Virus record (IMG/VR): IMGVR_UViG_3300045988_056908
Span: 65,792-129,791 of that record
From: a virus
DNA: 64,000 bases
Reading direction: 5' to 3' (one strand)
Both the position numbers and the translations under genes were made by a program. Positions 6,376 to 59,662 of this stretch are shown piece by piece. The notes beneath the pieces are model-generated. The model had not been told where the DNA came from, did no database searches, and saw only the letters and a list, made by a program, of their open reading frames with translations. How positions within the stretch are numbered: position 1 is the first letter of the stretch; each line of letters opens with the position of its first letter.

Positions 6376-7185
6376 TTATTTACAAACGTCTATTACAGTT
6401 AAGTTCTCGTTGCTGGGACGATAATTAATATCCCTATGAGAATTAGATACAATAACCTGGTCAAAATTATTACACATATTAATCAGACCTTTATCATTAA
6501 CTGCGTGACATACAATTATGATAAACTTGCTATTTGGATATCTCTCTTTGAGAACCTTAAGCTCTCCTAGGAAAGTTCCTCCAGCATCACACAAGTCATC
6601 AATGAACACAAATGTAGAATAGTAGCAATTCTTAGACTCCTCTATTTCAAAGGACTCAATTCTTCCAGTCTCTAGATTTCTTTCCTTTTTGAAAATTAAA
6701 TAACCATAGTGAGAATAGTTACTTCCATATCTGTCCTTCGCCCCGTGGTCTGGGAACACGATATTACTTTGGGCTGGAATCCAAGAGTGGTGTCCAAATT
6801 CCCAAGGTAAACATCTGTCACCAAGAAGATGAAAAGTTCTACTAGAATGTGCCTCAAGAACATATATGTTTCTATAGCCTAAGCTATTTAACATATTACA
6901 TACTACTTTCAAGGAGAATGGACGATTAAAACTCATTACTCTATCCATACGCATAGACATTAAATAAGTAATGTGTAAATCCCATTCTACTTCTTGTCTA
7001 TCTAAAATATCTCCTACTTGCATTAAGAGGAATAAATCCTCAGTATTAGATATTCTACAAATGACATCAATAGATTCCTTTCTGTTTAATTCCTCAGTAA
7101 GGAAAAACTGAGGCTCTCCATCAGGAAATCTAGTAACATCGTACTTAATTTCACTGATTTCCTTGTTGATTAAGTTTAATTTCAT
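6376..7185 (-). CDS. ribose-phosphate pyrophosphokinase (Prs) family protein; candidate ADP-ribose pyrophosphate synthetase (Adps-like)
   Basis: N-terminal Prs-like KYDVTRFPDGEPQF and the PRPP-binding signature FIDDLCDAGGTF. Adjacent to a NAMPT-like gene. Confidence 0.75.
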   Translation of the reverse strand: MKLNLINKEISEIKYDVTRFPDGEPQFFLTEELNRKESIDVICRISNTEDLFLLMQVGDILDRQEVEWDLHITYLMSMRMDRVMSFNRPFSLKVVCNMLNSLGYRNIYVLEAHSSRTFHLLGDRCLPWEFGHHSWIPAQSNIVFPDHGAKDRYGSNYSHYGYLIFKKERNLETGRIESFEIEESKNCYYSTFVFIDDLCDAGGTFLGELKVLKERYPNSKFIIIVCHAVNDKGLINMCNNFDQVIVSNSHRDINYRPSNENLTVIDVCK

Positions 7186-7615
7186 CTACTACATATTTTA
7201 AGATTTCATAACTTTCTTCCAGACCTGCCCTATCATCTAGGAGGATATTGTAATAAGGTTTCTTAGATTTAGAGAATATAGAACTACTAATGTTTGGAGC
7301 AGATAAAGTATTAGAAGTAATATTTGCTATTCCTAATCGCATACAAATTGTCTGCTTTGCCATAATTTTATAATCATCTTCATCAGTGGTGAATAAAATC
7401 ATTTCAAAACCTAGAAGTGAGCATTCTTTAAGTAGTTCTATAACGCAACTATAATCTCCGCCAGTATTATGGTAATCGAAAATAGTATTATCAAAATCGA
7501 AAGCGACTATTAGCTTTCCGTATTTATGATACTCTTCTAATAGTCGTTTCTTGCAAGCTTCTTTCCCAAAAGGATGATTAAAGTCCACGGTCAATTCTTT
7601 GTCTAATTTCTTCAA
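7151..7615 (-). CDS. HAD-superfamily hydrolase or phosphatase
   Basis: HAD motif I DFDNT (DxDxT) near the N-terminus. ORF sits between the prs-like and NAMPT-like genes. Confidence 0.6.
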   Translation of the reverse strand: MKKLDKELTVDFNHPFGKEACKKRLLEEYHKYGKLIVAFDFDNTIFDYHNTGGDYSCVIELLKECSLLGFEMILFTTDEDDYKIMAKQTICMRLGIANITSNTLSAPNISSSIFSKSKKPYYNILLDDRAGLEESYEILKYVVDEIKLNQQGNQ

Positions 7616-9128
7616 GAGAATATTCTTTCTTCAAGATACCATCTTCAAAGACAGTCTCTAAGCATCCCTCTTTTTCCTCCTCGATTGAGACCTGGTCGGC
7701 AGCAGTATACTTCCCATCCAGACCTTTATAGACAGCAATCAAACCTTTCAAAGAGTTCTTAGTACCATCATCAGTTTTAGGATGTTTGAAGATTTCTTTC
7801 AACTCGCCATTTACTACGCAAGCAGTAGCCTTAATAGCAAACCCAAGACTATCTCTACTTGCATACTGATAGGAATATGAACCTACTCCCAGAACGAGAT
7901 TACAAGCCGCCATATTAGCGTTTTCTAATCTCAAGTAGATTTGCTTTTGACGTTCTAGAGTAATAGAATCTCCATAAAGCAGACCAACCTTAGTGCTAGG
8001 ATAGCGGTAATCCTTTGAAGTAGTATTCCATCCGAAGATTTTACCAAGCATATAATATGCCCCATAATATTGACCTTCGGACACTTCAACATACTCTGCA
8101 TCGTCGTTAAACGGAGCATAGCAGCAATAATACTTACCTTCTTTCATTCTGGTATTGAAGTGAGGATTAGTTCTCAACCCGCAGATTATATCTACTGGGT
8201 CTCCACTATCAGGACGGATTACTACTCTACCATCACGAGCCATAATGTCTTTCTTCAGCTTGGGTAAGAAATTTTCAATTACATTCCAGAAATCCCAAGT
8301 ATCAGATACAATAGAAACAAACCCAGAAGGATACAAATCATTAATTAGACGTTTGAAAGTGCCCAGCTCATCTTCCTCCCCTCCAGCACACATTACAGAG
8401 TGTTCTGTTGCTGGAACTGTAGCAGCAATCAATTCCTCGTCTGAATTAGCTCCATAATATTCTTCCAGGGCAGCAATAGCTGGAATAGTCTCACTTCCCA
8501 CAAAAGAAGTCATATGCGCCATACCAGATATGATTGCAGCTTCCATTCCCGCCATACCTCGCATTGAGAAATCATGACAACAAAAACCAAGATTTACATC
8601 TGTTGGAAAACCAGTCTTGCAAGCATGACGATGTAGCTCTTTCTTATAAAGCCTAGCTCTAGTAGCAGATGTGCATGGCATCCACAAGGTACAGCTGATA
8701 ATAGTCTCTAAGTAGTTAGTTAACCAAAAGAACTCGGGTAGGGTATTTGTAATGGTCATCATGGGAACCCGAATAGGGCACACAGAACCTTCAGGAAGAG
8801 CCTTTATGCGAATTGGTAGATACCCAAGGTCATATAAAGCTTCAATATGTCTGTACCCAACGGATTCAATACCAACAAAGTTGTTTACTCTACGATAGAA
8901 CATCTCCACAGCTTCCTTCTTTGGTAAATTAAAGAAGTTTTTCTCAAACTGTTTAATGAGATATTCTTTGATTAGGTATTGAATACCAAATACTACTGAA
9001 CCTTCGGTTGCTTCTGGGAAGTATTTATTACTTCTAGGAGTCCAGTTACTATAAACTTGTTCAGTACCTTCGGGGTACATTCTGTGATGGCCCAATTTGT
9101 AACCATCTGTAGCATTAATTATTTCCAT
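7578..9128 (-). CDS. nicotinamide phosphoribosyltransferase family (NadV/NAMPT-like; candidate Namat)
   Basis: 516 aa. N-terminus INATDGYKLGHHRMYPEGTEQVYSNWTPRS resembles the NAMPT N-terminus ATDSYK...Y. The length fits the family. Confidence 0.8.
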   Translation of the reverse strand: MEIINATDGYKLGHHRMYPEGTEQVYSNWTPRSNKYFPEATEGSVVFGIQYLIKEYLIKQFEKNFFNLPKKEAVEMFYRRVNNFVGIESVGYRHIEALYDLGYLPIRIKALPEGSVCPIRVPMMTITNTLPEFFWLTNYLETIISCTLWMPCTSATRARLYKKELHRHACKTGFPTDVNLGFCCHDFSMRGMAGMEAAIISGMAHMTSFVGSETIPAIAALEEYYGANSDEELIAATVPATEHSVMCAGGEEDELGTFKRLINDLYPSGFVSIVSDTWDFWNVIENFLPKLKKDIMARDGRVVIRPDSGDPVDIICGLRTNPHFNTRMKEGKYYCCYAPFNDDAEYVEVSEGQYYGAYYMLGKIFGWNTTSKDYRYPSTKVGLLYGDSITLERQKQIYLRLENANMAACNLVLGVGSYSYQYASRDSLGFAIKATACVVNGELKEIFKHPKTDDGTKNSLKGLIAVYKGLDGKYTAADQVSIEEEKEGCLETVFEDGILKKEYSLEEIRQRIDRGL

Positions 9129-11005: not shown

Positions 11006-12022
11006 TCATTGTTCTGTTACGATTACGATTCTGTTAAATTCTCTATCTCCAAACTCAGTAGTGCTTCCGCAGCCTTTAACTATAAGCTTATCCTCTGGAG
11101 CGCCATAACTGATAAGGGCCTTCTTCATAGATTCTGCTCTAGCTACAGCTAAGTTGTCATTAAAATCTACTGGACCTTCTTCAGAAGCATATCCTTCAAT
11201 CATATATGACTTACCACTATTTGAAATATAAGCTGCTAACTCCGATACTGCAACATTAGAAGTTGTAGAGATTTCAGAAGAGTTCTGTAAAAACTGAATT
11301 TTAGGTGTAAGAAGTTCTACCTTAGTAACTACTATAGTATCAGTCTTAATTATTTCTACTGGTTTACGAGATTCCAATTCGCTATTCTTAACCCTCAACT
11401 CGTTAATAGCAGCATTAAGACTTTCTACTTCAGCGTCACTATATAGTTTCATCATAGGAAAGTTTCCTTTATTAGACTTAAACCGGTAAGTGGCTCCTAT
11501 ATAAACATTTACTTCATGATTTAGAGGAGTAGTCTTTGGAAGTAGCATATACTCTGGAGTAACATTTAGTGCCCAACTATCAGTAATATTAAAGTTGCAT
11601 CTAATTGCACCTCTTGCAGATACATTATTATAAACATCACCATAAGTATGATACCAACCAGCACCTATCAGTAATACAGGCTCAAATAAACGTCTAGAGC
11701 CTTCGTATCCACAAATAAGATTAGTTAGATTAGTAGTTACATTAGCTGTAAGGTTATGGGAATCGAAGAACGTTTTACTGCCTTGATTCATACCTGCCAT
11801 CATATCTAACTCTAGTCCGAAGATAGGAGTAATTTCTTTACCCACCGCAATATTTACTAATACATCATGAGGTTCAGCCCAACTTCTTGAGTTGTCCCAA
11901 ATTGTGGTACCTACATTACCAGAAACATACCAGTTATCTTTCAAACTTCCAGTTTCAACAACTTGTGCGCTAGCAAACACGCACATTAAACACAAACAAA
12001 TAATACTAAAAATTTTCTTCAT
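11006..12022 (-). CDS. OmpA-family outer-membrane protein (signal peptide, beta-barrel N-terminus, OmpA-like C-terminal peptidoglycan-binding domain)
   Basis: Signal peptide MKKIFSIICLCLMCVFASAQ. C-terminal MIEGYASEEGPVDFNDNLAVARAESMKKAL...REFNRIVIV matches OmpA C-terminal domain signatures. Confidence 0.75.
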   Translation of the reverse strand: MKKIFSIICLCLMCVFASAQVVETGSLKDNWYVSGNVGTTIWDNSRSWAEPHDVLVNIAVGKEITPIFGLELDMMAGMNQGSKTFFDSHNLTANVTTNLTNLICGYEGSRRLFEPVLLIGAGWYHTYGDVYNNVSARGAIRCNFNITDSWALNVTPEYMLLPKTTPLNHEVNVYIGATYRFKSNKGNFPMMKLYSDAEVESLNAAINELRVKNSELESRKPVEIIKTDTIVVTKVELLTPKIQFLQNSSEISTTSNVAVSELAAYISNSGKSYMIEGYASEEGPVDFNDNLAVARAESMKKALISYGAPEDKLIVKGCGSTTEFGDREFNRIVIVTEQ

Positions 12023-12038
12023 AATTCTATTAATTAAA

Positions 12039-12473
12039 TTAATCCCACCAAGACCTCATACGTTCAAACTTTAGTTTGTTGTATAAGTACCAGGCTTTTT
12101 CTCTTCTCAGATAATCTTTAAGGATTGGAGTATTCCAATCGAGATCAGCAGCCTTAGGGTGGAATCGATTCCAATTTTTAGTATTTATGTGTCTATCTAC
12201 AAATCCCTTTGACCCAGGTCTAAAGTCATGGTGATACGCAGAATCTATTTCTAGCACAATATCTAATAGCTTTAGTGCTAGATTTAGCTCTTTTTCGACA
12301 CGTTCATTGCCTTCCGCAATTCTAGATACCTTAAAGTATTCATACATTCTAATTAGGGCTTGTTTCTCTAAAGAGAGAACAAATCCATAATCGAATGGAT
12401 AAAACTTCATAGCTTCTTTGATAAGTTTCTTATTCTTATTCTTTCTTAGTTTCATATTCCTGACTTGCTTCAA
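12039..12473 (-). CDS. hypothetical protein
   Basis: 144-aa ORF. Confidence 0.5.
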   Translation of the reverse strand: MKQVRNMKLRKNKNKKLIKEAMKFYPFDYGFVLSLEKQALIRMYEYFKVSRIAEGNERVEKELNLALKLLDIVLEIDSAYHHDFRPGSKGFVDRHINTKNWNRFHPKAADLDWNTPILKDYLRREKAWYLYNKLKFERMRSWWD

Positions 12474-12879
12474 CTGCTAATTTATCTGCGAGATTATTCA
12501 TCTGAGAAAAGAAGTCTGAACTTGAAGTATGTCCTTTCACCCAACAAAAATCTATATTAGGACAAAATTGCTTTGCCTTATTTAAGACCTTGTCGTATAA
12601 ATTCCATAACTCTACGTTCTTCTTTCTTTTCCATCCTTTAGTAGCACATCCTATGACGTACTGAGAATCTGAGTAAATAGTCAGAGATTCGATTTTACGA
12701 CTTACTGCATTTAGAGCATAAATTACTGCTAACAACTCACATTTATTATTAGTAGTATTAGGAATCATCTTACTAAATTCATAGGCTTTTTCCCCATCAA
12801 TTACGAATACAACTCCTACTCCTCCTGTGTCTCTAGACGAGCTAAAAGCTCCATCAGTGAACACTTCTAGCCTGCTCAT
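12436..12879 (-). CDS. rnh: ribonuclease H
   Basis: VFTDGA...NNKCELLAVIYAL...DSQYV...KGH...NNLADKLA matches the RNase HI catalytic motifs. Confidence 0.85.
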   Translation of the reverse strand: MSRLEVFTDGAFSSSRDTGGVGVVFVIDGEKAYEFSKMIPNTTNNKCELLAVIYALNAVSRKIESLTIYSDSQYVIGCATKGWKRKKNVELWNLYDKVLNKAKQFCPNIDFCWVKGHTSSSDFFSQMNNLADKLAVEASQEYETKKE

Positions 12880-14582: not shown

Positions 14583-14924
14583 TTACTTAGAGGAAGGATC
14601 GCCTTGTTTCCTAATCTCTTCGAAAATTCCTAGAAGATTCGTTGGCAAGGTAATCTTTAGTTGAGAGATTCTCTCCTGTTCAGACGTTCTCCAGTTATTA
14701 AACTGACTTCTAAACTCTTGCATTTTAGAATTATATCTCTCATAGTCAGCCTTAAATTCTGCTACTCTATCTTGATATTCCCTTTCTCTAGTCATATCAA
14801 GTTTATTTACAGTCTCTTTAAGTTCTGCCTTCATAGCGTTCAGTTCTTTTTCATAAGAACGATACGTATCTTGAAGAGACATAAACATCGCATCAACATC
14901 CTCTACCTCTGATTTTAATGTCAT
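14583..14924 (-). CDS. coiled-coil protein (start uncertain; overlaps the 3' end of the upstream homing endonuclease gene)
   Basis: 113-aa ORF, heptad-rich. Confidence 0.45.
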   Translation of the reverse strand: MTLKSEVEDVDAMFMSLQDTYRSYEKELNAMKAELKETVNKLDMTREREYQDRVAEFKADYERYNSKMQEFRSQFNNWRTSEQERISQLKITLPTNLLGIFEEIRKQGDPSSK

Positions 14925-15336
14925 GAGCTTTCAATACTTTTCTTACAGTATCATCACTACATCCCACTTTCTCCGCAACTTTTTTGCAAGTATATCCCAT
15001 ATTGTACAGTTCGATTATCTCTTGATAATCATATAACTATGTTCCGTCACCACCCTTAGTAGCATTATAGCCTTTGGAGCCATAAGTTTCCAACTCTTTT
15101 ATCCAATATACCTCTCTTTCTGAAAGTATGTTTTCGTCCTTTACATATTCTAATTCCTCTACTATAAAGTTTTCAACTCCATATTTATTCATAGCATCAT
15201 ATAATGGACGTTTTTCACATCTTTCTTTTCGAGAATCCTTGCAGTGTTCCTAAAATCTTTCCTATATAGTAAAGAGGGTTTTACCAACGTATCTTTTATT
15301 GTTGATAATATTTGTAATGCAATAGATATATCCCAT
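14893..15336 (-). CDS. GIY-YIG homing endonuclease; needs 3 in-frame TAG codons read as sense
   Basis: MGYIYCITNIINNKRYVGKT...(TAG)ERF(TAG)EHCKDS... on the minus strand. GIY...YVG and RFxEH motifs. Ends at TGA. Length 444 nt, in frame. Paralogue of 24237-24812. Confidence 0.75.
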
Positions 15337-15423
15337 ATCATAAACTATTTATAACATTATTAATAATTGATTGAATTAGCTTTACCCAAAACACACCACG
15401 TGGAGGTTTCAATCTTGTGTTTC

Positions 15424-15674: not shown

Positions 15675-16169
15675 TCAATTTGAGCTTCCATATTTATTAA
15701 GTATATCTAATTCCAATTCCTTAACTTTACTTTCATACAAGGAATCCTCAGCGTAGCCAATTCTGTCTAGGAATTTGTAGTAATCCTCTTCTGGGTTATA
15801 CTTACTAAGGATAAATTGCTTATAAGCGAATACACAGCTTATCCAACTATCGAACTTGAAGTAAGACATTGTTCTGGAATTATACAATCCGAACAGATTG
15901 TTATTGTCCTTACAAAGTTTCGATTTAAAATTGCCAGATTCCAGAACAGCCTGAGCTGTTATAATTGCTGGATTTGGAAAATCGTAATGCTTCAAAGTAT
16001 TGTACAATACTTCTTCGTTTACTTCATCCAATAAGTAGAATGGATGCTCTGGCAGCAATACCATTTCCTCCTGTTTCTGATTGAAATGTATCAGATGATG
16101 CAAAGAATAACCAGTTGCAAATCCGAATACAATACTAATCATAAGGATAATTAAAACTTTCTTTTTCAT
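15675..16169 (-). CDS. peptidoglycan hydrolase, glucosaminidase (GH73/FlgJ-like) domain with N-terminal membrane anchor
   Basis: AQAVLESGNFKS...NNLFGL matches the FlgJ-type glucosaminidase signature. N-terminal TM helix. Confidence 0.7.
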   Translation of the reverse strand: MKKKVLIILMISIVFGFATGYSLHHLIHFNQKQEEMVLLPEHPFYLLDEVNEEVLYNTLKHYDFPNPAIITAQAVLESGNFKSKLCKDNNNLFGLYNSRTMSYFKFDSWISCVFAYKQFILSKYNPEEDYYKFLDRIGYAEDSLYESKVKELELDILNKYGSSN

Positions 16170-18917: not shown

Positions 18918-19469
18918 TTACTCCAGACTAATTAAACCCTTCTCTAACATAATATGGTGATTCGGACATAACCATACTAAATTATTCTCGTTGTTAATCT
19001 CCTTAATAAGAGTGTCTTCGTCAAATCCTAATATTCCTTTAAGATGATGTACTTCAAGTATTGCATCAAATTCATGATTATGACAATATTGACATACTTT
19101 CTCACGTTCGGAACTTTCTAATACTCTACGAGCATTAGTCCTTATTTCTTGACATTTAGATGATAAGTACTTCTGCCCAGATGTATAATAACCTAATGTT
19201 TTGTTACCAATTCCATTAAGTTCTTCCCAGCAACTACGACACATTTCTGAATCTTTATGCTTAGGTTTACCACATCTAGGACATATCTTGTTTTCATCGT
19301 GCTTTATCCTACCTCTATTATTGTAAGAAGCAGCACACGAATGACTACAAAACTGTTTCTTCCTCACATCTGCGACCCTCTGATTATCTAGTACTTCGAT
19401 TACCTTACCACATTCCTTACAGTGGTTAGGATTCTCATAATACAATTTAAGAGATTGTTCTCGATTCAC
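18918..19469 (-). CDS. HNH endonuclease with Zn-ribbon motifs
   Basis: CKECG, CPRCG, and EVHHL...NLVWLCPNHH. No in-frame TAG. Confidence 0.75.
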   Translation of the reverse strand: MNREQSLKLYYENPNHCKECGKVIEVLDNQRVADVRKKQFCSHSCAASYNNRGRIKHDENKICPRCGKPKHKDSEMCRSCWEELNGIGNKTLGYYTSGQKYLSSKCQEIRTNARRVLESSEREKVCQYCHNHEFDAILEVHHLKGILGFDEDTLIKEINNENNLVWLCPNHHIMLEKGLISLE

Positions 19470-20290: not shown

Positions 20291-20320
20291 GTGGTGCTCT
20301 AACCAGTTGAGCTATAGCCC
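20291..20320 (-). pseudogene. tRNA 5'-half remnant (acceptor plus D-arm, no 3' half)
   Basis: GGGCTATAGCTCAACTGGTTAGAGCACCAC, followed directly by the next tRNA. D-arm resembles the tRNA-Met at 29602-29676. Confidence 0.4.
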
Positions 20321-20327
20321 TGTTATG

Positions 20328-20824
20328 TGGACCTAACGGGAGTCGAACCCGTGTCCAAACAACCCTTATTACAAGGATAACGTGCGTCTCATTTTTATTA
20401 CATCAGCTGTTGAGTTCAGCATGTAGATAGTTTTACTAAGAAGCTGAGTGTTAATTCACCAATTACGTCTCCTCGTAAGGCTACGACTTAGTTGTTCACA
20501 AACTACCAAACTGGGCTTGACCGAACGGTCGCTCCACCACTCCATTTACGTTGGAGAACGTCTATTTGTAACCCATAGCTAGGTAGTGGAGATTTCAGCT
20601 TACTAACTCTTAGAGCGTTCGGTTAATGACGTTTGTCAATCCTCTTCTGTTTCTAGGTCTCTCCAGTAACCCGACTTGATTAATAGTGTCTATTAATAAG
20701 CCAGCAGCTTAGGCTGCCATTCTTACAGGTGCAATTTCTGCAGTTATTTGTTTTCGTCGTTTAAAGAGATTGCGCTCTACACGTCCTTATAATTTGTAAT
20801 CGCCTGTCAAATCCAAGTAGGCCC
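20328..20824 (-). ncRNA. ssrA: tmRNA (ssrA-like), about 497 nt
   Basis: 5' end GGGCCTACTTGGATTTGACAGG resembles E. coli tmRNA GGGGCTGATTCTGGATTCGACGGG. 3' end TTTGGACACGGGTTCGACTCCCGTTAGGTCCA resembles TTTCGGACGCGGGTTCAACTCCCGCCAGCTCCACCA. Acceptor pairs GGGCCTA with TAGGTCC, giving a G3:U70 alanine identity pair. Internal A-rich AAAUAACU GCA resume context. Candidate tag AEIAPVRMAA then TAA; alternative AISLNDENK. Confidence 0.7.
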
Positions 20825-22537: not shown

Positions 22538-22610
22538 TGGACACGCAGGGACTCGAACCCTATCTTCCGGTGTGCAAAACCAGCGCTCTAGCCATTTGAG
22601 CTAACGGCCC
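22538..22610 (-). tRNA. tRNA-Ala(UGC), with imperfect acceptor stem
   Basis: GGGCCGTTAGCTCAAATGGCTAGAGCG; anticodon stem CTGGT/ACCGG with loop TTTGCAC; T-arm TAGGGTTCGAGTCCCTG. G3:U70 is possible, but only 4 of 7 acceptor pairs form. Confidence 0.55.
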
Positions 22611-23920: not shown

Positions 23921-24236
23921 ATATTATTTCCTCCCAGACATCTGTAAGTACCCCATTGGTACTTACCTTTTAATGATATTTTTACTCTTGTCCTCTGTAT
24001 GGAGGAGGTATTGTTCCAGACACTAACCAAGTGTAGTTCTTAGAACTCTGTTCAAAATACCATTTAGCAGCTTTCTTTACAACATTAATTACTTTCTTCA
24101 TAACATTAAAGTTTAAAATTGTTAATAATTAATCTAATAACAGAGCCACAAAAGGAGTTTAGTTGCGGAGGTAGGATTATTTCCAAATAAATTTATATGC
24201 AGTTTTCAATTTCCCTTTTACACATAAACTAATCTT

Positions 24237-24812
24237 CTAGCGAACACCTCCATTATAAGTTTTAGCATAGCCATTGTCTACTAACCAGTGTGCAGCATCG
24301 GCTATACTGTTCCAAGTCCTGATAAAGTTATTATTTAAATCATACTGAGATATTGATACAGGTTGCTTGCAACTTCCCAAATAAAATTTGTTCTTTGGTA
24401 TATTGTTTATATTTATTACTTTAGAAACTGTATCAACAGAACATTGCATTTTGGCGGAAACTTCAATCATTGTCATTCCGCTAGTATATAAAGATATTAT
24501 TTCTTTATAATCGAATAAGATAGCTCCATCGCCTCCCATAGTAGCATTATAGCCATTTGAGTATGTGTCTAGCTTATCTATAAATTGAATTTCATAAGAA
24601 GCTAATTCCTCATCATCACATTCATACAGCTACTCAACTATGAAATTCTCAACCCCGTACTTATTCATGGCATCGTACAACGGTCTCTTTTCACATCTTT
24701 CCTTCTTGCAATCATTACAATGTTCTTTAAATCTCTTAGTTACAGAATAAGTAGTTTTTCCAACATACTATTTTCCATTAATTAGATTTGTAATACAATA
24801 AATATATCCCAT
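24237..24812 (-). CDS. GIY-YIG homing endonuclease (paralogue of 14893-15336); needs 2 in-frame TAG codons read as sense
   Basis: MGYIYCITNLINGK(TAG)YVGKTTYSVTKRFKEHCNDCKKERCEKRPLYDAMNKYGVENFIVE(TAG)LYE...GYNATMGGDGAILFDY... continues into listed ORF 24237..24539. 576 nt, in frame. Confidence 0.75.
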
Positions 24813-24895
24813 GTTCTATTCTTATTTAAAATTAAACATATTAGTAAGATTAGCGTTATCCAACTCACACCACGTGGAGGTTCTTACTTGTGAGT

Positions 24896-25191: not shown

Positions 25192-25272
25192 TTCCGATTA
25201 AAGAATTTGAACCCCTGACCTCCCACCAATGCCTTATAGTTGTGGGCGCTCTGCCAACTGAGCTAAATCGGA
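25192..25272 (-). tRNA. aberrant 81-nt tRNA-like gene with an expanded (15-nt) anticodon loop containing a CUA triplet
   Basis: Perfect acceptor TCCGATT/AATCGGA. Canonical D-arm TAGCTCAGTTGGCAGAGC. Stem CCCAC/GTGGG enclosing AACTATAAGGCATTG. Weak T-arm AGGGGTTCAAATTCTTT. Confidence 0.4.
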
Positions 25273-27621: not shown

Positions 27622-28242
27622 CTAGGAAGAGAACACAATCCCCTCAATGCCAGAGAGAAACTCAATCATAGATTGATTATGGTCTCCCATATCCTTTACG
27701 ATAATAACAGGAAGGTTCAACTTATTAGCTAATTCTTTAGCTGTGACAGTCTTTCCAGTACCTTTTGTACCAGTAAGCATGATTCCTAAGTTTCCTTCCG
27801 TGTTACTATAAGTTTTGATTACATGGTCTATGAAATCTTCCTGCAGTCCATACATCTTGTACGGAAATACGAACTTGTCTGCATACTTATCCAGGTGATA
27901 ACCTGTCATTGTCAGACAAATACTGTAGATTCCAACTGGGAGAGACTGCTCAACGCTATAGCCTGAGCTTACCTGGGTATATGTAGACCCAGAACACATC
28001 CAAACTTTGTTCATTTTTTCTTTTTCTAAGTTACTTAAAACAGATGCCTGTTTGAGACATCCTACTAATTGATTAGCTATAGATTCTATAGCTTCTTTGT
28101 TATCAGTTTCCTCTGAGAGTCTTTTTACAAACCACTCTTTAGAACGGGCAACTATTTGCTCATCAGTCTCATTTTCAGAGATTGTTTCAGCAAATTCATG
28201 GTAGATACTAGTCAGCTTACCTTCTAATTCTTCTACGGTCAT
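27622..28242 (-). CDS. AAA ATPase N-terminal part (Walker A); upstream half of a split gene
   Basis: IMLTGTKGTGKTVTAKELA P-loop about 40 aa before the ORF end. Terminates at TAG. The Walker B region follows in the -1 frame. Confidence 0.6.
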   Translation of the reverse strand: MTVEELEGKLTSIYHEFAETISENETDEQIVARSKEWFVKRLSEETDNKEAIESIANQLVGCLKQASVLSNLEKEKMNKVWMCSGSTYTQVSSGYSVEQSLPVGIYSICLTMTGYHLDKYADKFVFPYKMYGLQEDFIDHVIKTYSNTEGNLGIMLTGTKGTGKTVTAKELANKLNLPVIIVKDMGDHNQSMIEFLSGIEGIVFSS

Positions 28243-28978: not shown

Positions 28979-29389
28979 TTATACTACTTTAAGATGGCAA
29001 TAAATACTAAATTCTGGAATTGGAATCCAAGTTGCAATACCATTGCTATCTACTGGTTTACCCTTGTTGATTGTACAAATAGTGATATGAGGTTTAGCAT
29101 TTGCACAAGGCAGATATTGGTCTCCCAATTCTACTCCAAAAGCTATTGCTTTCTCAGAAATCCCTATTTTGTTTACAATTAATCGAAAATTACCATCTAT
29201 ACGATATTGTAGGTCATTAGCCATCTTTTCTTCATGTTGATTTTTATGGAGAAGAGTGCAATGATCTAAATAAATAGTACTTCCTCTTTGGAACACCAGA
29301 TTGCAAATAATGGGATTTCCAATGATAACTTGCATAAGTTTGTTTCTAGTTGGTTCATCTAAGAACAATCCAAAATACTGATAATTCAT
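28979..29389 (-). CDS. 2H phosphoesterase superfamily protein (LigT-like)
   Basis: Two H-x-T/S-x motifs: LDHCTLL and KPHITICT, in a 136-aa protein. Confidence 0.55.
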   Translation of the reverse strand: MNYQYFGLFLDEPTRNKLMQVIIGNPIICNLVFQRGSTIYLDHCTLLHKNQHEEKMANDLQYRIDGNFRLIVNKIGISEKAIAFGVELGDQYLPCANAKPHITICTINKGKPVDSNGIATWIPIPEFSIYCHLKVV

Positions 29390-30375: not shown

Positions 30376-30389
30376 ATTTGTTAATTTTG

Positions 30390-30461
30390 TTGGGCTACTA
30401 GGACTCGAACCTGGACTCTCAGAACCAAAATCTGATGTGACTACCATTACACCATAGCCCA
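30390..30461 (-). tRNA. tRNA-Gln(UUG)
   Basis: Acceptor TGGGCTA/TAGCCCA; D-arm TGGTGTAATGGTAGTCAC; anticodon stem TCAGA/TCTGA with loop TTTTGGT; T-arm CCAGGTTCGAGTCCTAG. Confidence 0.75.
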
Positions 30462-31010: not shown

Positions 31011-32984
31011 TTACTTCACTTCTTCAAACTCAGTTGTTTCAGCTTTCTTCTCCTCCAACTCTTTCTTGCCGAGAACACTTTTCAGTGTATCAGCGAAAGG
31101 TATAGAGCGAAGCAAGTCGAACGCAGGATTCAAGTTCTCAGCAGTTTTAGCCATGAAGTTACCAGCGGTATTCTCGTTACCATAAACAGTAACCTGTCCA
31201 AGGTGAACGTGTTCAAACATCTGAGCAGATGCTTCTGCAATACCTGTCAACTGGTCAACTGTCTTGTACTGAACCACCATTTCCGGAGTCAAGCCAGATT
31301 CAATCATCTTCTGGACTGCCAGAGCAGGAGCCATTTCAATAGCCTGGACTTTATCAGCCTCAGCCATCAAAGATGCTCTCTTACCCTCAGCTTCAGCAAG
31401 CAGTTTCTTTCTTGTACCTTCAGCTTCGGCTTCTAGCTGCAACTTTGTAGCATTTGCTTTAGCCTCCGCTTCTTTCAGAATTTCAGCAGCCTTAGCTTCT
31501 GCTTCAAGTACAGCTTTCTGCTTAACAGCTTCTGCCTCAATCGTAATACGTTCCTTCTCCTTTTGAGCAGGAACAATCGTCTCAGCATGAAGCTTAGCTT
31601 CCATAGCCAATGCAGCTGCTTCATTTACTTCCAGTTGCTTTTCTTGCTTAGTTTTCTCGATAGTCATTTGAGCTTCTACCTTAGAAGTTCCTGCTACCTT
31701 TTCAGCTTCAGCCTTAGCTTTCTCGGCTTCTCCCTTAGCTTTAGAGACTTCAATCGTGGCATTTTGTTCTGCCACTCCTGCAATCTTATCAGCTTCGGCT
31801 GCCTTTACACGCTTGTCTGACTCATACTTAGCAACTGCAGCTTCCTGTTCGTTAATTGCCTTTTGCGTCTCAGCTTCCTGTTTTTGCTTAGCCTGAGCAA
31901 TACGAGTTTGTTTCTCTGCTTCTGCTTCTGCTTTCTTAGAGTCAGCTTCTGCTTTAGCCTTAGCTACATTAGCCTCAGCCAGTGATTCAGACTCTGCTCT
32001 ATTAGAATCGGCTTCTGCTTGAGCTTTAGCTATAGCTGAAATTTTCTCAGCTTCTGCTTTAGCTTTCTCCGATTCCGCTGCAGTATTAGCTTTAGCAATA
32101 TTGGCAGCTTGCTCAGCTTTCTGATTAGCAATACCTGATTGCTTATTCTTCTCAGCTTCTGCAAGTTTGATTTCCTTCTCCTGGTTAATCTCTGCCACAC
32201 GAACCTCTTGCTCTTGTCTAGTCTGAGCAACAGTAGTTTCACGCTCTTTCTCAGCGTCTGCTACAGCAATTTCACGTTGCTTGTTGGTTTCTGCAATCTG
32301 AATATCTCCTTTCTTCTTCTCTTCTGCAATATCAGCCTGTGCCTGAGCAAGAGCTTTAGTTGCAGCTTTCTGACCTAGATTCTTGATATAGTTTGCATCA
32401 TCCGAAATATCAGCATTGTTAATGTTGATAATACTGAAACCTACCTTATTCAACTCGGTCTCAATATTCTCCTTAGCTTTGCCGATAAACTTGATTCTAT
32501 CAGCGTTAATTTCCTCAATCGTCATCGTAGCCATCAAGCTTCTCACTTCACCAATGAGAATATCCTTGATTTGGTCTGAGATTTCAGAAGTTTTAGCTGT
32601 TAAGAATCTGCTTGCAGCATTTTGCATTAATGTTTGAGTAGTTCCAATACCAGTGGTCAATGTTACAGGAATAGTTACCTTAATCATTTGACTGGAAACA
32701 CCAGTAACATTTACTTGAATTTGGATAGGTTTCAAAGACATTTTAGCCCAGTCTTGAATTACTGGCATTACGAATGTACCTCCACCATGAATGATTTTGG
32801 ACGGCAGAATAACTTCCTCAGGCTTTCCAGTCTTCTCGTTAACTACTTTTTTCTTACCAGCCTTACCAAACACAACCAAGATTTCATCACTAGCACACTT
32901 ACGATACCGTGACAAAAGTCCAATAAAGGTTAAAACTACTAGCAATACAATAACACCTGCTACAATAAGAGTTTCTGTTGTCAT
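31011..32984 (-). CDS. flotillin-like SPFH/band-7 protein with a long Ala/Glu/Lys-rich coiled-coil C-terminus
   Basis: N-terminal TM helix and an SPFH-like region (ILVVFGKAGKK...VVQYKTVDQL). About 400 aa of AEAEKxK coiled-coil repeats. Follows an NfeD-like gene, as in bacterial nfeD-floT operons. Confidence 0.7.
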   Translation of the reverse strand: MTTETLIVAGVIVLLVVLTFIGLLSRYRKCASDEILVVFGKAGKKKVVNEKTGKPEEVILPSKIIHGGGTFVMPVIQDWAKMSLKPIQIQVNVTGVSSQMIKVTIPVTLTTGIGTTQTLMQNAASRFLTAKTSEISDQIKDILIGEVRSLMATMTIEEINADRIKFIGKAKENIETELNKVGFSIININNADISDDANYIKNLGQKAATKALAQAQADIAEEKKKGDIQIAETNKQREIAVADAEKERETTVAQTRQEQEVRVAEINQEKEIKLAEAEKNKQSGIANQKAEQAANIAKANTAAESEKAKAEAEKISAIAKAQAEADSNRAESESLAEANVAKAKAEADSKKAEAEAEKQTRIAQAKQKQEAETQKAINEQEAAVAKYESDKRVKAAEADKIAGVAEQNATIEVSKAKGEAEKAKAEAEKVAGTSKVEAQMTIEKTKQEKQLEVNEAAALAMEAKLHAETIVPAQKEKERITIEAEAVKQKAVLEAEAKAAEILKEAEAKANATKLQLEAEAEGTRKKLLAEAEGKRASLMAEADKVQAIEMAPALAVQKMIESGLTPEMVVQYKTVDQLTGIAEASAQMFEHVHLGQVTVYGNENTAGNFMAKTAENLNPAFDLLRSIPFADTLKSVLGKKELEEKKAETTEFEEVK

Positions 32985-39671: not shown

Positions 39672-41032
39672 GGTTTTCTTTTTAATTCGTTAAATCTTTT
39701 TCTTGCTAATTTTCCATTCACAAATGTTTCTGTAACTGTTCTGATGCCTTCTATGTGAATGGTATACTCGAAGGCGTGGGTTCCAGTGAGAGTTATCACT
39801 CTTCCCCCATGAATCTGTAAATCTTGCGCGAACAGTTGAATCGCAGTGTAATCTGTTGAATTTTCTCATTTTCTTTTTCTTTTAATCCTGACTACCTATT
39901 TCTAGGTAGTTTCGTCTTAATTTTCAAAGACTCGTCAGAGGATTTTTAAAAATATCCCCACCGCTGTGGGATAAAAAATGAACACTATCAAAAGACCTTC
40001 CTGTGCCACTCTCCTTTGAATTGTTTCACAACAATTACATAGTCTCTGGGCGTACCCATTATAATCTCCAATAATACACAACAATAGTTCCCTACTCTGG
40101 ACTTGAACCAGAATCTTCTCCTTTAGAGAGAGATATACTGACTTGTACTAGTAGGGAAATACTCCACCTGCCTAAGCTCCCTATGGGAGCTGTAGGCTAT
40201 CTAGAATAAGATGGAGAGTTATTTAGATAGTTTCCTACGCTATCTACGTTACCAACGTCCACTAAGAATATAGGTAGCTAATCCATATTCTTGCGACTGA
40301 GTTCGAGGTAGGAAATATACCCTTATGAGGTATCCTCTTATCAGCTAGCCTATCCTTATCGCTCCGCGATAAGGGTTTCTAGCGGCTTATACTAGGCAAC
40401 TTCTAAATAAATAAAATGCATAACTATAAGTGATATGCTTTGGTCGACTGGCATATCAGCAGTACTTCATAATGTTGCTATAAGCGACCAACCCTATAGC
40501 TCAATCCTCTTGTAATAGTGTTTAAGTTTGCGAATATACACATTACAATCGTAGCAGTTATTTTCGGATATTGGGCTATCTGCGTAACCCCGCTTTTTGT
40601 TGCCTTTTTATAGGCTGATGTTAGAGTAAATAATCATTGTAGTATGAGTTATAAAACTCGTCCTACTGGCGATTTTTTGAAAACTGGAAAAAGTCGGAAA
40701 ATTGGGTGTCGGGGTTGTGGACAATTCTTCTCCTTACTCTCCATATTTTCACGTGAAACATACACGATTTTACTAGAAATGATAGTCTTTCCTATCAGCC
40801 AGACATAAAACTAAAACTACTACAAAAGTTAACTCGGTTTTTGATTTTTTTTTGTTTTGTTGTTGATTTCTCCGTTGACCAATGTTCCAATGATGGAGTT
40901 CATATGGGCATTTTATTTTAACTCATAATACCTTAGAGCTGCACGTTTGACTTATTTTAAATCTCGTTGTGCGCTGAGATTGACTCTAAGATTCGGTCAC
41001 ACTCTCACTTATTTATACACGAGAGAGTCGTG
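39672..41032. other. about 1.36 kb of ORF-poor DNA carrying several perfect hairpins (39893-39910, 39953-39972, 40168-40182, 40349-40371) and a T-rich tract (40845-40860)
   Basis: No ORF of 60 aa or more on either strand. Examples: CTACCTATTTCTAGGTAG, CCTTATCGCTCCGCGATAAGG, GCTCCCTATGGGAGC. Confidence 0.4.
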
Positions 41033-42582: not shown

Positions 42583-42654
42583 TGCCCTATGGTGTAATGG
42601 TCAGCACAGATGACTCTAAATCATTTAGTCTGGGTTCGAATCCTAGTAGGGCAA
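42583..42654 (+). tRNA. amber suppressor tRNA, anticodon CUA, derived from tRNA-Gln (predicted to insert Gln at UAG)
   Basis: TGCCCTA TG GTGTAATGGTCAGCAC A GATGA CTCTAAA TCATT TAGT CTGGGTTCGAATCCTAG TAGGGCA A. Anticodon loop CTCTAAA gives CUA. The backbone (TGGTGTAATGGT..., CCTAGTAG...) is closely similar to tRNA-Gln(UUG) at 30390-30461. Confidence 0.8.
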
Positions 42655-42684
42655 CGCCAAAATTAATAGTTATGATAAATTTAA

Positions 42685-57841: not shown

Positions 57842-59662
57842 ATGGCAGCTATCAAATCTATAAAGGTTAGAGAAACCGTATATGACTTAAAGGCTACCTA
57901 TGATGGCTCTGGAAATGTTATAGATTAGACATATGCAAAATCTAGTGCCATTCCAACTAAAGTGTCCTAGTTATAGAATGATGAAAATTATTTAAAGGAA
58001 CACTAGGATATAAGTGGTTTAGCTACTAAACCGGAGTTGGAAAGTAAGGTAGATAAAGAATTAGGAAAAGGACTTTCTGAAGCTAATTACACAGAAACTG
58101 AAAAACAGAAACTTAGTGGTATTGCAGATAATGCAAATAATTATGTACACCCAACTACTTCTGGAAATAAACACATACCTGCTGGAGGAGCACTTGGATA
58201 GATTTTAACCTTTTCTGAAGATGGGACTGCATAGTGGGCAGATACTAGTACTAAGTTAAAGAAACAATTTGATGCTCTTAATACTGCTTGGGAAGAATTA
58301 CAAAAAGAGCAATAGAGTCTAAGCAAACAAGTCACAGAGTTAAGCAGTAACGTAGACTTATACTCTTACGGAGTAGAATGGGATATTACCGTATTTTCTC
58401 CTATCCTTACTAGAATAGGAAACCCACTGTTACATAAATCCCTTCCTATTTAGTCTGCTTACAGAGGATGTGTAGCAAATAACGGTGCGGTAAATTACTA
58501 TTTATATCCAGACGATTGGGCTTACAAAGAAGATGGAAATACTCCTTCTGTGCTTGATGGAACTGATGGAACTGTAAGAGTCCACACTCCTAAATTTTAT
58601 GGTAAATCAGGCTCTAATGGAAATAAAAGATGGGTTAGAATTTCTCTAGTAAAGCTTGATGATTCATGGATAGAAATACCAGAACTATTAATTGACGCAT
58701 ATAGAAATACCGTTGATAATACTGTGTCAGCAACCCCTAAAGCTGTGTCTGTGGTCAATACTACAGAAGCATTTAGAGGTGGTGGAAATAGAGCACAATT
58801 CGATGAGTATCTAACTACTGAACTTGATACCAAAGATGCTTTTAGAAGCGATTTAGGAAAACCTAGAACTAATGTTTCTAGAACTAATATGAGAACTTAT
58901 GCTACAAATGCAGGTTCTGAATTATTATGCTATGAATATTATAAATGGATATTCTACTGGAACTATGTAATAGAATATGCTAACTTTAACTCTCAGGCTG
59001 CCTATAATGCCGAGCTTACTTCTGATGGTTATCGTCAAGGAGGACTTGGTCCTGGAGTTACAGACTGGAGTAACTCTGATACAAGTTGGTCTGAATATAA
59101 TGGAACCTATCCTATTACTCCATGTGGTTATTGTAATGATATTGGTAACTTCACTGGAATCAAAGATTTAGTTATTCCAGAGTGTACTGCAACAAACGGA
59201 ACAGGTACAGTAGCGACTAAGACATTTAAAGTTCCAAGATGGAGAGGTTTTGATAATCCATTTGGAGATATTTGGACAAACCTAGATGGAGTAGTTATTC
59301 AAAGAACTGCGGCAAATGAAATCAGTAGTGTATATACTACCACAAACAAGGAAGAGTTTACTGACGTAATTGGCAATAAGACCGTAGCAGGATACGAGGT
59401 AGCGCAAGATGGATACATTAAAGAGCTTGACTTGGGAGAGACAGCAGAGATTATACCATCTTCTTGTACTGGAGCCTCAGCTACAACTTATATGTGTGAC
59501 TACCACTCTTGCAACGCTACCTCTACAGCGCTTCGCACGCTGCTGGTGGGCGGCTACGCGTCTGATGGCGGCAATGCGGGTCTCGGCTATTTCTTTTCTA
59601 ACCGTGTCGTCGGCTTTGCCTCTTCCACTGTCGGGTTCAGGACTCTAAACAGAGTATCTTAA
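57842..59662 (+). CDS. tail fibre or receptor-binding protein; primary DGR target with C-terminal variable region (TAG recoded)
   Basis: 606-aa frame incorporating listed ORF 58550..59662. C-terminal CLec-like segment CDYHSCNATSTALRTLLVGGYASDGGNAGLGYFFSNRVVGFASSTVGFRTLNRVS encoded by GC-rich VR1. Confidence 0.7.
59540..59637 (+). repeat. DGR variable repeat 1 (VR1)
   Basis: Aligns to TR 59740-59837 with about 17 mismatches at TR adenines and about 3 elsewhere. Confidence 0.75.

What the first reader, a model, noticed from the sequence alone, without database searches (positions are those of the whole stretch)
20328..20824. Phage-encoded tmRNA (ssrA) hidden in a 600-nt ORF-free stretch of the tRNA array
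Both ends of the minus-strand transcript mimic E. coli tmRNA. The 5' end is GGGCCTACTTGGATTTGACAGG, against GGGGCTGATTCTGGATTCGACGGG. The 3' end is TTTGGACACGGGTTCGACTCCCGTTAGGTCCA, against TTTCGGACGCGGGTTCAACTCCCGCCAGCTCCACCA. The acceptor helix forms with a G3:U70 pair, the AlaRS identity element. An internal A-rich AAAUAACU precedes a GCA resume codon, and a short ORF ends in -MAA then TAA. This is a phage carrying its own trans-translation RNA, in a genome that reassigns a stop codon.
Basis: partly seen in the sequence, partly recalled or inferred. Interest (0 to 1): 0.7.

Follow-up and report, generated by a model that had tools for sequence, protein, structure and literature searches.

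The report
Phage-encoded tmRNA in tRNA array
A gut phage that reads the TAG stop codon as an amino acid carries its own, unusually long copy of tmRNA, the RNA that frees stalled ribosomes; phage tmRNAs are already known, but this lineage's was missed because the standard detection program fails on it.

Summary
Rfam's tmRNA model (RF00023) matches window 20325-20824 (-) end to end at 76 bits (gathering score 47, E 1e-27).

The gene belongs to a family found in 33 IMG/VR contigs (most about 100-190 kb) and two GenBank human-faecal phage fragments. It always sits at the same place in the tRNA array. Across 23 distinct sequences of 497-574 nt, the tRNA-like domain and helix 2 never vary. The 10-codon tag frame is kept through synonymous, replacement and stop-codon (UAA/UGA, never UAG) changes.

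The genome is a distant crAss-like phage. Its late genes are full of in-frame TAG (32 in the portal gene) and it carries two amber-suppressor tRNAs.

Three features are unusual. The RNA is 80-160 nt longer than any of 109 bacterial tmRNAs compared. No second stem of pseudoknot 1 was found. ARAGORN misses 20 of the 23 sequences and mis-reads the tag in the other three.

Phage tmRNAs are already described, so this is a new member of a known kind. A functional link to TAG recoding is plausible but untested.

The parts
20328..20824 (-). Whole tmRNA (ssrA) gene, 497 nt from G1 to the discriminator A. CCA is not encoded (…GGUCCA|CAU), as for all 27 neighbouring tRNA genes.
   Evidence: RF00023 76 bits, full length. 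Boundaries come from the family alignment. tRNA 3' tails are.
20818..20824 (-). Acceptor stem, 5' strand (GGGCCUA), with G3 of the G3·U pair.
   Evidence: Pairs 1-7 with 490-496. All 7 pairs are invariant in 23/23 sequences and pair 3 is G·U.
20328..20352 (-). T arm (ACGGG / UUCGACU / CCCGU), acceptor 3' strand (UAGGUCC) and discriminator A.
   Evidence: cmscan alignment; invariant pairs. This is the only stretch with sequence similarity to bacterial tmRNAs in nhmmer.
20779..20806 (-). Helix 2, 5' strand (tmRNA positions 19-46): three stacked segments of 9, 9 and 5 bp.
   Evidence: RNAalifold and pair counts: 23 pairs, all standard and invariant in 23/23.
20356..20385 (-). Helix 2, 3' strand (positions 440-469).
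20765..20778 (-). Hairpin AGAG-CGCAAU-CUCU at the position of pseudoknot 1 (positions 47-60). No conserved second stem was found.
   Evidence: 4 invariant pairs. cmscan marks the PK1 pairs as non-standard. A manual search of positions 61-83 for a partner of the loop found at most 2 bp, and these are broken in relatives with CGAAG.
20742..20764 (-). A-rich single-stranded leader ending AAAUAACU before the resume codon. A is kept at -3 and -4 in all variants (…AAUAACU, …AAUAAAU, …AAUAAUU).
   Evidence: Family alignment. The same context, AUAACU|GGC or AAUAAAU|GGC, occurs in Bacteroidales tmRNAs L176, L191 and L193.
20709..20741 (-). Tag reading frame: resume codon GCA, 10 codons (AEIAPVRMAA), stop UAA.
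   Evidence: Relatives encode ATYSEVRMAA or AAYSEVRMAA, with a synonymous GCC>GCG change and stop UAA or UGA.
20704..20717 (-). Helix 5 hairpin (GCAGC / CUAA / GCUGC) holding the stop codon in its loop.
   Evidence: 5 pairs, 100% paired. The pairing is retained in the UGA-stop variant.
20672..20703 (-). 12-bp hairpin following helix 5 (positions 122-153).
   Evidence: helix 7: 100% paired, one A-U to G-C double change (13 vs 10 sequences) and three one-sided changes.
20587..20665 (-). Branched domain closed by UGGAGA/UCUCCA (positions 160-238). It holds a variable module that is a 12-nt hairpin here and a pseudoknot-containing insert of 36 to about 90 nt in relatives.
   Evidence: Closing helix 97.8% paired, with double changes at the terminal pair. 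The insert differences are visible.
20562..20584 (-). Proposed H-type pseudoknot (ACCU..CUAU GGGU…AUAG, positions 241-263).
   Evidence: Manual model. Both-sided changes occur in stem 1 (U-A/C-G at columns 313:324) and stem 2 (A-U/C-G at 318:334). Relatives of the L003/L005 type carry a different module here.
20540..20561 (-). Proposed H-type pseudoknot (ACGU-U-CUCCA-ACGU-AAA-UGGAG, positions 264-285).
   Evidence: Manual model. In L005-type relatives, stem 2 is replaced by CCUACUU/AAGUAGG and stem 1 by CGUU/AGCG (sequences). Pair counts on A2 are 89-91% paired.
20426..20507 (-). Long variable arm closed by GGUAG-UU/AA-CUAUC (positions 318-399).
   Evidence: Closing helix 100% paired, with G-C/G-U/A-U at one pair. 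The interior differs between subfamilies but keeps a covarying stem (columns 450-453 with 507-510).
20388..20420 (-). Proposed last pseudoknot (GCUG..CUCA..CAGC, an A-rich 14-nt loop, then UGAG; positions 405-437), next to the helix 2 3' strand where PK4 lies in bacterial tmRNA.
   Evidence: Manual model. Stems are 100% and 91% paired but almost invariant, so covariation neither supports nor contradicts it.

Best explanation
This is a functional one-piece tmRNA gene carried by a TAG-recoded, distantly crAss-like gut phage. Shown: the RNA has every sequence and structure element needed to act as tmRNA, and the phage lineage conserves them. Inferred: it is transcribed with the surrounding tRNA array on the minus strand, and its 5' end is cut by RNase P like a tRNA. 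CCA is then added, since no gene in the array encodes it, and the host AlaRS charges it with alanine through G3·U70 and the A discriminator. It most likely works with the host's SmpB, because none is encoded nearby. It enters ribosomes stalled at the 3' end of broken or stop-less mRNAs. Translation resumes on GCA and adds AEIAPVRMAA, then terminates at UAA, releasing the ribosome and marking the peptide with a C-terminal -MAA tail. The likely benefit is keeping ribosomes available during infection. Demand for rescue should rise when the phage's two amber-suppressor tRNAs make ribosomes read through host genes that end in UAG, and when host mRNAs are degraded. This last link to recoding is hypothesis only.
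For: - Rfam: RF00023 matches full length at 76 bits against a gathering score of 47. Seven relatives tested score 56-75 bits.
- tRNA-like domain: the acceptor stem with G3·U, the T arm and 23 bp of helix 2 are invariant in 23 distinct sequences, while the rest of the RNA varies.
- Structure: the hand-built model has 93.9% of cells paired against 39-47% when partners are slid. It has 9 pairs with changes on both sides against 1-3 in the slid controls.
- Tag frame: always 10 codons, with the C-terminal VRMAA kept. Changes seen are a synonymous GCC>GCG change, a UAA>UGA stop change and replacement of the N-terminal half. The stop always lies in the helix 5 loop and is never UAG.
- Resume context: it matches Bacteroidales tmRNAs.
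- Tag ending: -MAA occurs in bacterial tags, in 2 of 109 sampled, e.g. Akkermansia.
- Synteny: the order tRNA-Met … tmRNA – tRNA-Ile – Asp – Thr – Glu is the same in relatives.
- Phage identity and recoding.
- Suppressor link: read-through by suppressor tRNAs is an established source of trans-translation substrates (PMC3985003, citing Ueda et al. 2002).
- Precedent: phage tmRNAs exist (PMC4131195, PMC7162821).
Against: - There are no expression, aminoacylation or tagging data.
- The Rfam score is about half that of bacterial tmRNAs (129-170 bits), because the central domain does not align.
- No second stem of PK1 was found.
- The last pseudoknot has no covariation.
- Conservation of the last tag codons could partly reflect helix 5 pairing rather than selection on the peptide.
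- The tag has Arg at -4 and Met at -3 instead of the Bacteroidales -YALAA. Whether proteases recognise it is unknown.
- No SmpB gene lies in the window or in 336 kb of related loci, so dependence on host SmpB is assumed. About two thirds of the roughly 190-kb genome was not available.
- The two nearest TerL relatives with sequence available show no tmRNA, so the gene is not required across the wider clade.
Confidence: 0.75

Rival explanations
1. The RNA performs trans-translation, but its tag is not a degradation signal, or it directs peptides to a different fate. The phage would replace the host's -YALAA tagging with -VRMAA tagging, so that ribosomes are recycled without loading host proteases, or so that tagged products are handled by a phage factor.
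For: The phage tag differs from the Bacteroidales tags GENNYALAA and GNTSYALAA in every position except the final AA, and it carries a charged Arg at -4. The C-terminal five residues are the conserved part of the tag, so something selects on them.
Against: Tags ending in -MAA occur in bacteria (2 of 109), so VRMAA may be an ordinary degron. Part of this conservation is explained by helix 5. No candidate phage adaptor or protease was seen near the gene.
Confidence: 0.12
2. The RNA is an inhibitor or decoy. It competes with host tmRNA for SmpB, EF-Tu or stalled ribosomes, shutting down host trans-translation rather than supplementing it.
For: A TLD-only tmRNA in mycobacteriophage DS6A has been discussed as a possible SmpB titrator (PMC4131195). 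The most rigidly conserved part here is the tRNA-like domain plus helix 2, which is the SmpB-binding part. No phage SmpB was found.
Against: A decoy would not need the resume context, a 10-codon frame kept through synonymous and stop-codon changes, or a stop codon placed in helix 5. Maintaining a 497-574 nt RNA is costly for a decoy that needs only about 100 nt.
Confidence: 0.07
3. The gene is a decaying or neutral passenger captured from a host, or the remnant of an integration site. Many temperate elements integrate into ssrA and carry a copy of its 3' end.
For: The covariance score is low relative to bacterial tmRNAs. PK1 appears degenerate. The centre of the RNA is hypervariable, with large indels.
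Against: The gene is full length, not a 3' fragment. Apart from the T arm it has no sequence similarity to any of about 120 bacterial tmRNA loci compared, so it is not a recent capture. The functional core is invariant across 23 distinct sequences whose other parts have diverged and recombined. No integrase was seen among the neighbours examined.
Confidence: 0.04

Closest known systems
Bacterial one-piece tmRNA (ssrA, Rfam RF00023), Bacteroidales type
   Same: The tRNA-like domain has G3·U70, the T loop GGUUCGACUCC, a long helix 2, an A-rich leader ending AUAACU/AAUAAAU before the resume codon, a short tag ending in -AA, the stop codon in helix 5 and pseudoknots downstream. The 5' motif UUGGNUUUGACAG and the lack of an encoded CCA are shared with Bacteroidales examples.
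   Different: It is 497-574 nt against 390-415 nt for the Bacteroidales examples and at most 415 nt in 109 sampled bacterial tmRNAs. It scores 56-76 bits against 129-170. The resume codon is Ala (GCA/GCU) rather than Gly (GGC). The tag is …VRMAA rather than …YALAA. PK1 is reduced to a hairpin. The 3' domain is expanded, with interchangeable modules. It is encoded in a phage tRNA array, with no adjacent smpB.
Mycobacteriophage Bxz1-group and Bacillus phage G tmRNAs (tmRNA Website; PMC4131195)
   Same: These are complete tmRNA genes carried by large lytic phages that also encode many tRNAs.
   Different: They have different hosts (Actinobacteria, Bacillus) and no known stop-codon reassignment. 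Standard tmRNA finders detected those genes, whereas ARAGORN fails on 20 of 23 here. No sequence comparison could be made because those sequences were not retrieved.
tmRNA and SmpB genes of huge phages (Al-Shayeb et al. 2020, PMC7162821)
   Same: They form part of a phage-encoded translation toolkit, with tRNAs and termination or rescue factors, in large phage genomes.
   Different: Those were found with ARAGORN and sometimes accompany a phage SmpB. Here no SmpB was found in the 64-kb window or near the gene in relatives. The carrier is a phage of about 190 kb related to crAss-like phages, not a phage over 200 kb.
TLD-only tmRNA of mycobacteriophage DS6A (PMC4131195)
   Same: It is phage-borne, with a tRNA-like domain that could engage SmpB.
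   Different: DS6A lacks the mRNA-like domain. The present gene has a conserved resume site and tag frame.

Membership tests
tmRNA (ssrA; Rfam RF00023) | Covariance-model score at or above the curated gathering threshold over the full model | tested here: met
   76.0 bits against 47, model positions 1-374, E 9.8e-28. Seven relatives score 56-75 bits.
tmRNA (ssrA; Rfam RF00023) | tRNA-like domain: the 5' and 3' ends form a 7-bp acceptor stem stacked on a T arm with a GTΨC-type loop, and there is no anticodon arm | tested here: met
   Pairs 1-7/490-496 and 473-477/485-489, loop UUCGACU. All are invariant in 23/23.
tmRNA (ssrA; Rfam RF00023) | Alanine identity: G3·U70 wobble pair and an unpaired purine discriminator | tested here: met
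   Pair 3:615 is G·U in 23/23. The discriminator is A. Charging itself is not testable here.
tmRNA (ssrA; Rfam RF00023) | Long helix 2 connecting the tRNA-like domain to the rest of the molecule | tested here: met
   9 + 9 + 5 bp, 100% paired. It is invariant, so supported by conservation and not by covariation.
tmRNA (ssrA; Rfam RF00023) | Internal tag reading frame with no start codon. It begins at a resume codon after an A-rich single strand and ends at a stop codon in or near helix 5. The peptide ends in hydrophobic-Ala-Ala. | tested here: met
   AAAUAACU|GCA … GCC UAA gives AEIAPVRMAA. The frame length and VRMAA are kept through synonymous, replacement and stop-codon changes. The stop lies in the helix 5 loop.
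tmRNA (ssrA; Rfam RF00023) | Pseudoknot 1 between helix 2 and the resume codon | tested here: not met
   Only a 4-bp hairpin (positions 47-60) is present. cmscan flags the PK1 pairs as non-standard, and no conserved partner for the loop exists in positions 61-83. From memory, not checked here: PK1 has been replaced by a hairpin in E. coli without loss of tagging, and it is not universal. I therefore treat it as typical rather than strictly defining.
tmRNA (ssrA; Rfam RF00023) | Pseudoknots (PK2-PK4) between helix 5 and the 3' strand of helix 2 | tested here: inconclusive
   Three H-type pseudoknots are proposed by hand (positions 241-263, 264-285, 405-437). Two have changes on both sides or module-level compensation, and one is invariant. 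They do not align to Rfam's PK2-PK4, and extra hairpins and arms are present.
tmRNA (ssrA; Rfam RF00023) | Works with SmpB; is alanylated; tags stalled nascent chains | not testable with these tools
   No SmpB was found in the window or in 336 kb of related loci, using an HMM built from 52 bacterial SmpB proteins. The rest of the genome was unavailable. A scan of viral contigs for SmpB was swamped by E. coli prophage flanks.
Phage-encoded tmRNA (as in Bxz1-like mycobacteriophages, phage G, huge phages) | A complete tmRNA gene resident in a bona fide phage genome, not at a prophage-host junction | tested here: met
   The window encodes terminase, portal and tail proteins and an RT. TerL is 26-29% identical to crAss-like TerL. 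The gene lies inside a 27-tRNA array, at a conserved position in 33 viral contigs of up to 270 kb.

The most novel reading that the evidence does not exclude
The tmRNA is an integral part of the phage's code-switching machinery. It is co-expressed with the amber-suppressor tRNAs from the same strand. It would clear the ribosomes that run off host and early messages once UAG stops being read as stop, or after phage-induced mRNA decay. Its own tag deliberately ends at UAA or UGA so that it still terminates in a UAG-suppressing cell. Its enlarged, module-swapping pseudoknot ring and its -VRMAA tag would be adaptations to that role, for example escape from host nucleases or a phage-specific fate for tagged proteins. 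If so, ribosome rescue would be a required companion of stop-codon reassignment in phages.
Probability: 0.25. Interest if true: 0.7.

Novelty: new member of a known kind. Interest (0 to 1): 0.45.

Why it matters
The finding adds ribosome rescue to the known translation toolkit of the large, TAG-recoded crAss-like gut phages, which already includes tRNA arrays and suppressor tRNAs. Neither the survey that defined these groups nor a 2025 study of Zeta crAss-like genomes mentions tmRNA (PMC7886860, PMC12386605).

It also exposes a blind spot. ARAGORN, the tmRNA finder used in the phage-annotation studies read here, misses 20 of 23 family members and mis-assigns the tag in the other three. Phage tmRNAs of this type are therefore probably under-counted.

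The co-occurrence of amber suppressors and a private tmRNA gives a concrete hypothesis: suppressor-driven read-through raises the need for trans-translation. This could be tested in a cultured Bacteroides-phage pair.

The expanded, modular 3' domain is a natural experiment on how much the pseudoknot ring of tmRNA can be altered.

Tried and rejected
- **ARAGORN.** On the window, on the isolated region and on all 23 family members, it finds no gene in 20. In three it finds the gene but places the tag wrongly (VQQKDDRATVLNLKAKG at positions 185-241). I attribute this to a limitation of the program on these sequences, since the covariance model scores all tested members above threshold. It is not evidence against the gene.
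- **Bacterial origin.** A scan of genome contigs with the 21-nt T-arm pattern returned at least 120 loci from many phyla. nhmmer with the family profile found only the T arm in them. End-region identities put Bacteroidales first by one or two matches only. No source lineage can be named.
- **More distant phage relatives.** The 14-nt 5' pattern in viral contigs gave at least 120 hits. Apart from contigs already in the family, none had tmRNA similarity.
- **SmpB.** No hit in the window or related loci. The viral-contig scan returned only E. coli-type smpB at prophage ends.
- **Automatic covariation scan of all column pairs.** It was too noisy, because the sequence is AU/GU-rich and the variable modules are misaligned. 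I replaced it with a hand-built model tested.
- **RNAalifold pairing of tag codons AGAAUG with CGUUCU at tmRNA positions 265-270.** Rejected in favour of the local pseudoknot at 264-285, which is supported by module-level compensation.
- **Loop of the PK1 hairpin pairing with AUUGC inside the tag.** Rejected, because the partner is absent in the ATYSE-type tags.
- **Sigma-70 promoter and terminator scan.** Matches were at chance level, and the only 'terminator' is helix 5.
- **Low-threshold Rfam search of the region.** No intron or other known RNA lies inside the extra length.
- **Nearest TerL relatives.** MT835470 and MT835539 show no tmRNA, but both contigs are incomplete.

Full report
**Observation.** Rfam's covariance model RF00023 matches 20325-20824 (-) over its whole length at 76.0 bits (gathering score 47, E 9.8e-28). 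A permissive search of the region alone finds nothing else of note inside it. The quoted 5' and 3' sequences are present. The ends form a 7-bp acceptor stem with G3·U and an unpaired A, stacked on a 5-bp T stem with loop UUCGACU. AAAUAACU precedes GCA at 20741-20739, and the frame reads AEIAPVRMAA followed by UAA. No minus-strand ORF of 40 aa or more lies between 20004 and 20948. ARAGORN reports 27 tRNAs but not this gene.

**Context.** The window is phage DNA. On the + strand from about 43 kb it encodes terminase, portal, tail protein and a reverse transcriptase. These are readable only if TAG is sense, with 15, 32, 8 and 5 in-frame TAGs respectively and 23 TAG per 1000 codons overall. The minus-strand block from 1 to 43 kb reads in the standard code, with 33 TAA, 11 TGA and 3 TAG stops among 47 ORFs. 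It contains all but one of the tRNA genes, including an amber-suppressor tRNA-CUA. A second tRNA-CUA on the + strand most resembles the phage's own tRNA-Gln. The terminase is 26-29% identical to crAss-like terminases. Large genome, many tRNAs, late-gene TAG-to-Gln recoding and an RT match the description of the Zeta crAss-like group (PMC7886860). I did not formally assign the phage. No tRNA in the array encodes CCA, and neither does the tmRNA.

**Family.** The 29-nt 3' end occurs in 33 IMG/VR contigs, mostly 100-190 kb. Two GenBank human-faecal phage fragments also match. Extraction gave 23 distinct sequences of 497-574 nt, and the window's is the shortest. Seven relatives tested all pass the Rfam threshold at 56-75 bits. 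The gene keeps its place in the array: tRNA-Met … tmRNA – tRNA-Ile – Asp – Thr – Glu. The acceptor stem, T arm and 23 bp of helix 2 are identical in all 23, while the centre differs by substitutions and by whole-module replacements of up to about 60 nt.

The tag frame is always 10 codons. There are three peptide versions (AEIAPVRMAA, ATYSEVRMAA, AAYSEVRMAA), a synonymous GCC>GCG change, and UAA or UGA but never UAG as stop. The stop codon stays in the loop of helix 5. Modules assort independently. For example, the window shares its tag with L005 but its 3' arm with L003, which indicates recombination among co-circulating phages.

**Structure.** RNAalifold recovers the tRNA-like domain, helix 2, a hairpin at the PK1 position, helix 5 and several downstream helices. 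I added three H-type pseudoknots by hand, at tmRNA positions 241-263, 264-285 and 405-437, and tested the whole model on the alignment. 93.9% of cells pair, against 39-47% with partners slid. Nine pairs show changes on both sides, against 1-3 in the slid controls. Because I derived the model partly from these sequences, the paired percentage is inflated; the both-sided changes are the more meaningful figure. The core helices are invariant, so they are supported by conservation only. I found no second stem for PK1. The last pseudoknot is conserved but does not covary.

**Comparison with cellular tmRNAs.** A T-arm pattern retrieved at least 120 bacterial loci, and ARAGORN extracted 109 tmRNAs of at most 415 nt from them. 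Five of these score 129-170 bits on RF00023, about twice the phage value. nhmmer finds only the T arm in common, so there is no recent donor. Bacteroidales examples share the 5' UUGGNUUUGACAG and the resume context AUAACU| or AAUAAAU|. They use a GGC resume codon and GENNYALAA or GNTSYALAA tags. Tags ending in -MAA exist in bacteria, in 2 of 109.

**Mechanism.** Shown: all recognisable determinants of a working tmRNA except PK1's second stem, and purifying selection on them. Inferred: co-transcription with the tRNA array, RNase P and CCA maturation, alanylation, use of host SmpB, resumption on GCA, and release at UAA. Host SmpB is assumed because none is found in the window or in 336 kb of related loci, and the rest of the genome is untested. 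The biological rationale is inferred as well. Suppressor tRNAs create stop-less translation that tmRNA must resolve (PMC3985003, citing Ueda et al. 2002). Recoding has been proposed to sabotage host protein synthesis by read-through (PMC7886860). In recoded E. coli, tmRNA activity determines whether UAG-containing viruses propagate (PMC6207430). A private tmRNA would keep ribosomes available in such a cell. The nearest TerL relatives available lack a detectable tmRNA (incomplete contigs), so the gene looks lineage-specific.

**Known or new.** Phage tmRNAs are documented in Bxz1-like mycobacteriophages, Bacillus phage G, a TLD-only form in DS6A (PMC4131195), and in huge phages together with SmpB (PMC7162821). 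Full-text searches for tmRNA together with crAss-like phages or with recoding found no description of this family. The two dedicated papers on these phage groups do not contain the word. ARAGORN's failure on 20 of 23 members explains how it could be overlooked. I therefore rate it a new member of a known kind, with unusual length and a reduced PK1. Interest is moderate: solid and useful, but not surprising in kind.

Noticed in passing
window 40213-40404 (-), next to tRNA-CUA at 40087-40157 (-): A full-length RAGATH-14 RNA (RF03145, 154 bits against a gathering score of 149) lies 55 nt upstream of an amber-suppressor tRNA on the same strand. Its function is unknown. The adjacency to the suppressor may be meaningful.
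   Followed up: no
window 40087-40157 (-) and 42583-42655 (+): Two tRNAs carry the anticodon CUA. The second is most similar to the phage's own tRNA-Gln(UUG) at 30389-30461, consistent with TAG being read as Gln. The first is divergent from all other tRNAs in the window.
   Followed up: partly
window 20291-20320 (-): A 30-nt 5' fragment of a tRNA (GGGCTATAGCTCAACTGGTTAGAGCACCAC) lies between the tmRNA and tRNA-Ile(GAU). In relatives such as L004 587-661 the same sequence begins a complete tRNA-Ile. Here a different tRNA-Ile allele has displaced it, leaving a stump.
   Followed up: partly
window 60249-61253 (+), beside tail protein 57842-59662 (+): A reverse transcriptase (phrog_1423, E 7.7e-90; YADD motif) with 5 in-frame TAG codons sits next to a tail protein gene. 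This looks like a diversity-generating retroelement, as reported for Zeta crAss-like phages. Template and variable repeats were not searched.
   Followed up: partly
window 28979-29389 (-) and 27622-28242 (-): RNA-repair-like genes lie inside the tRNA array. One ORF has a tRNA-ligase cyclic-phosphodiesterase domain (PF08302, E 2e-7). A P-loop ORF is cut by TAG shortly after its Walker A motif and does not continue sensibly in frame, so it may be a split, intron-containing or frameshifted gene.
   Followed up: partly
window 18918-19469 (-), 14896-15348 (-), 24180-24821 (-): An HNH endonuclease (Pfam/PHROG hits) and two paralogous ORFs with a GYIYCITN… GIY-YIG-like N-terminus (motif only, not HMM-tested) are interspersed among the tRNA genes. 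They look like homing endonucleases. The third has an in-frame TAG.
   Followed up: no
window 25192-25272 (-) and 22538-22610 (-): Rfam's tRNA model finds two further tRNA-like genes (45.1 and 39.5 bits) that ARAGORN did not report. ARAGORN also labels both suppressors 'Pyl'.
   Followed up: no
window 7578-9128 (-) and 6376-7185 (-): A nicotinamide phosphoribosyltransferase (phrog_448, E 7e-182) and a PRTase-like protein suggest a phage NAD-salvage module. Also present are an OmpA-like protein (11006-12022), an SPFH/Band 7 protein (31011-32984), RNase H (12436-12879) and a glucosaminidase (15675-16169).
   Followed up: no
L003, L005, L001 (relatives), tmRNA alignment A2 columns 190-270 and 310-370: The tmRNA's variable modules are swapped as units between otherwise near-identical genes. 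Tag type, insert type and 3' arm type assort independently, which implies frequent recombination within this 0.5-kb RNA gene.
   Followed up: partly
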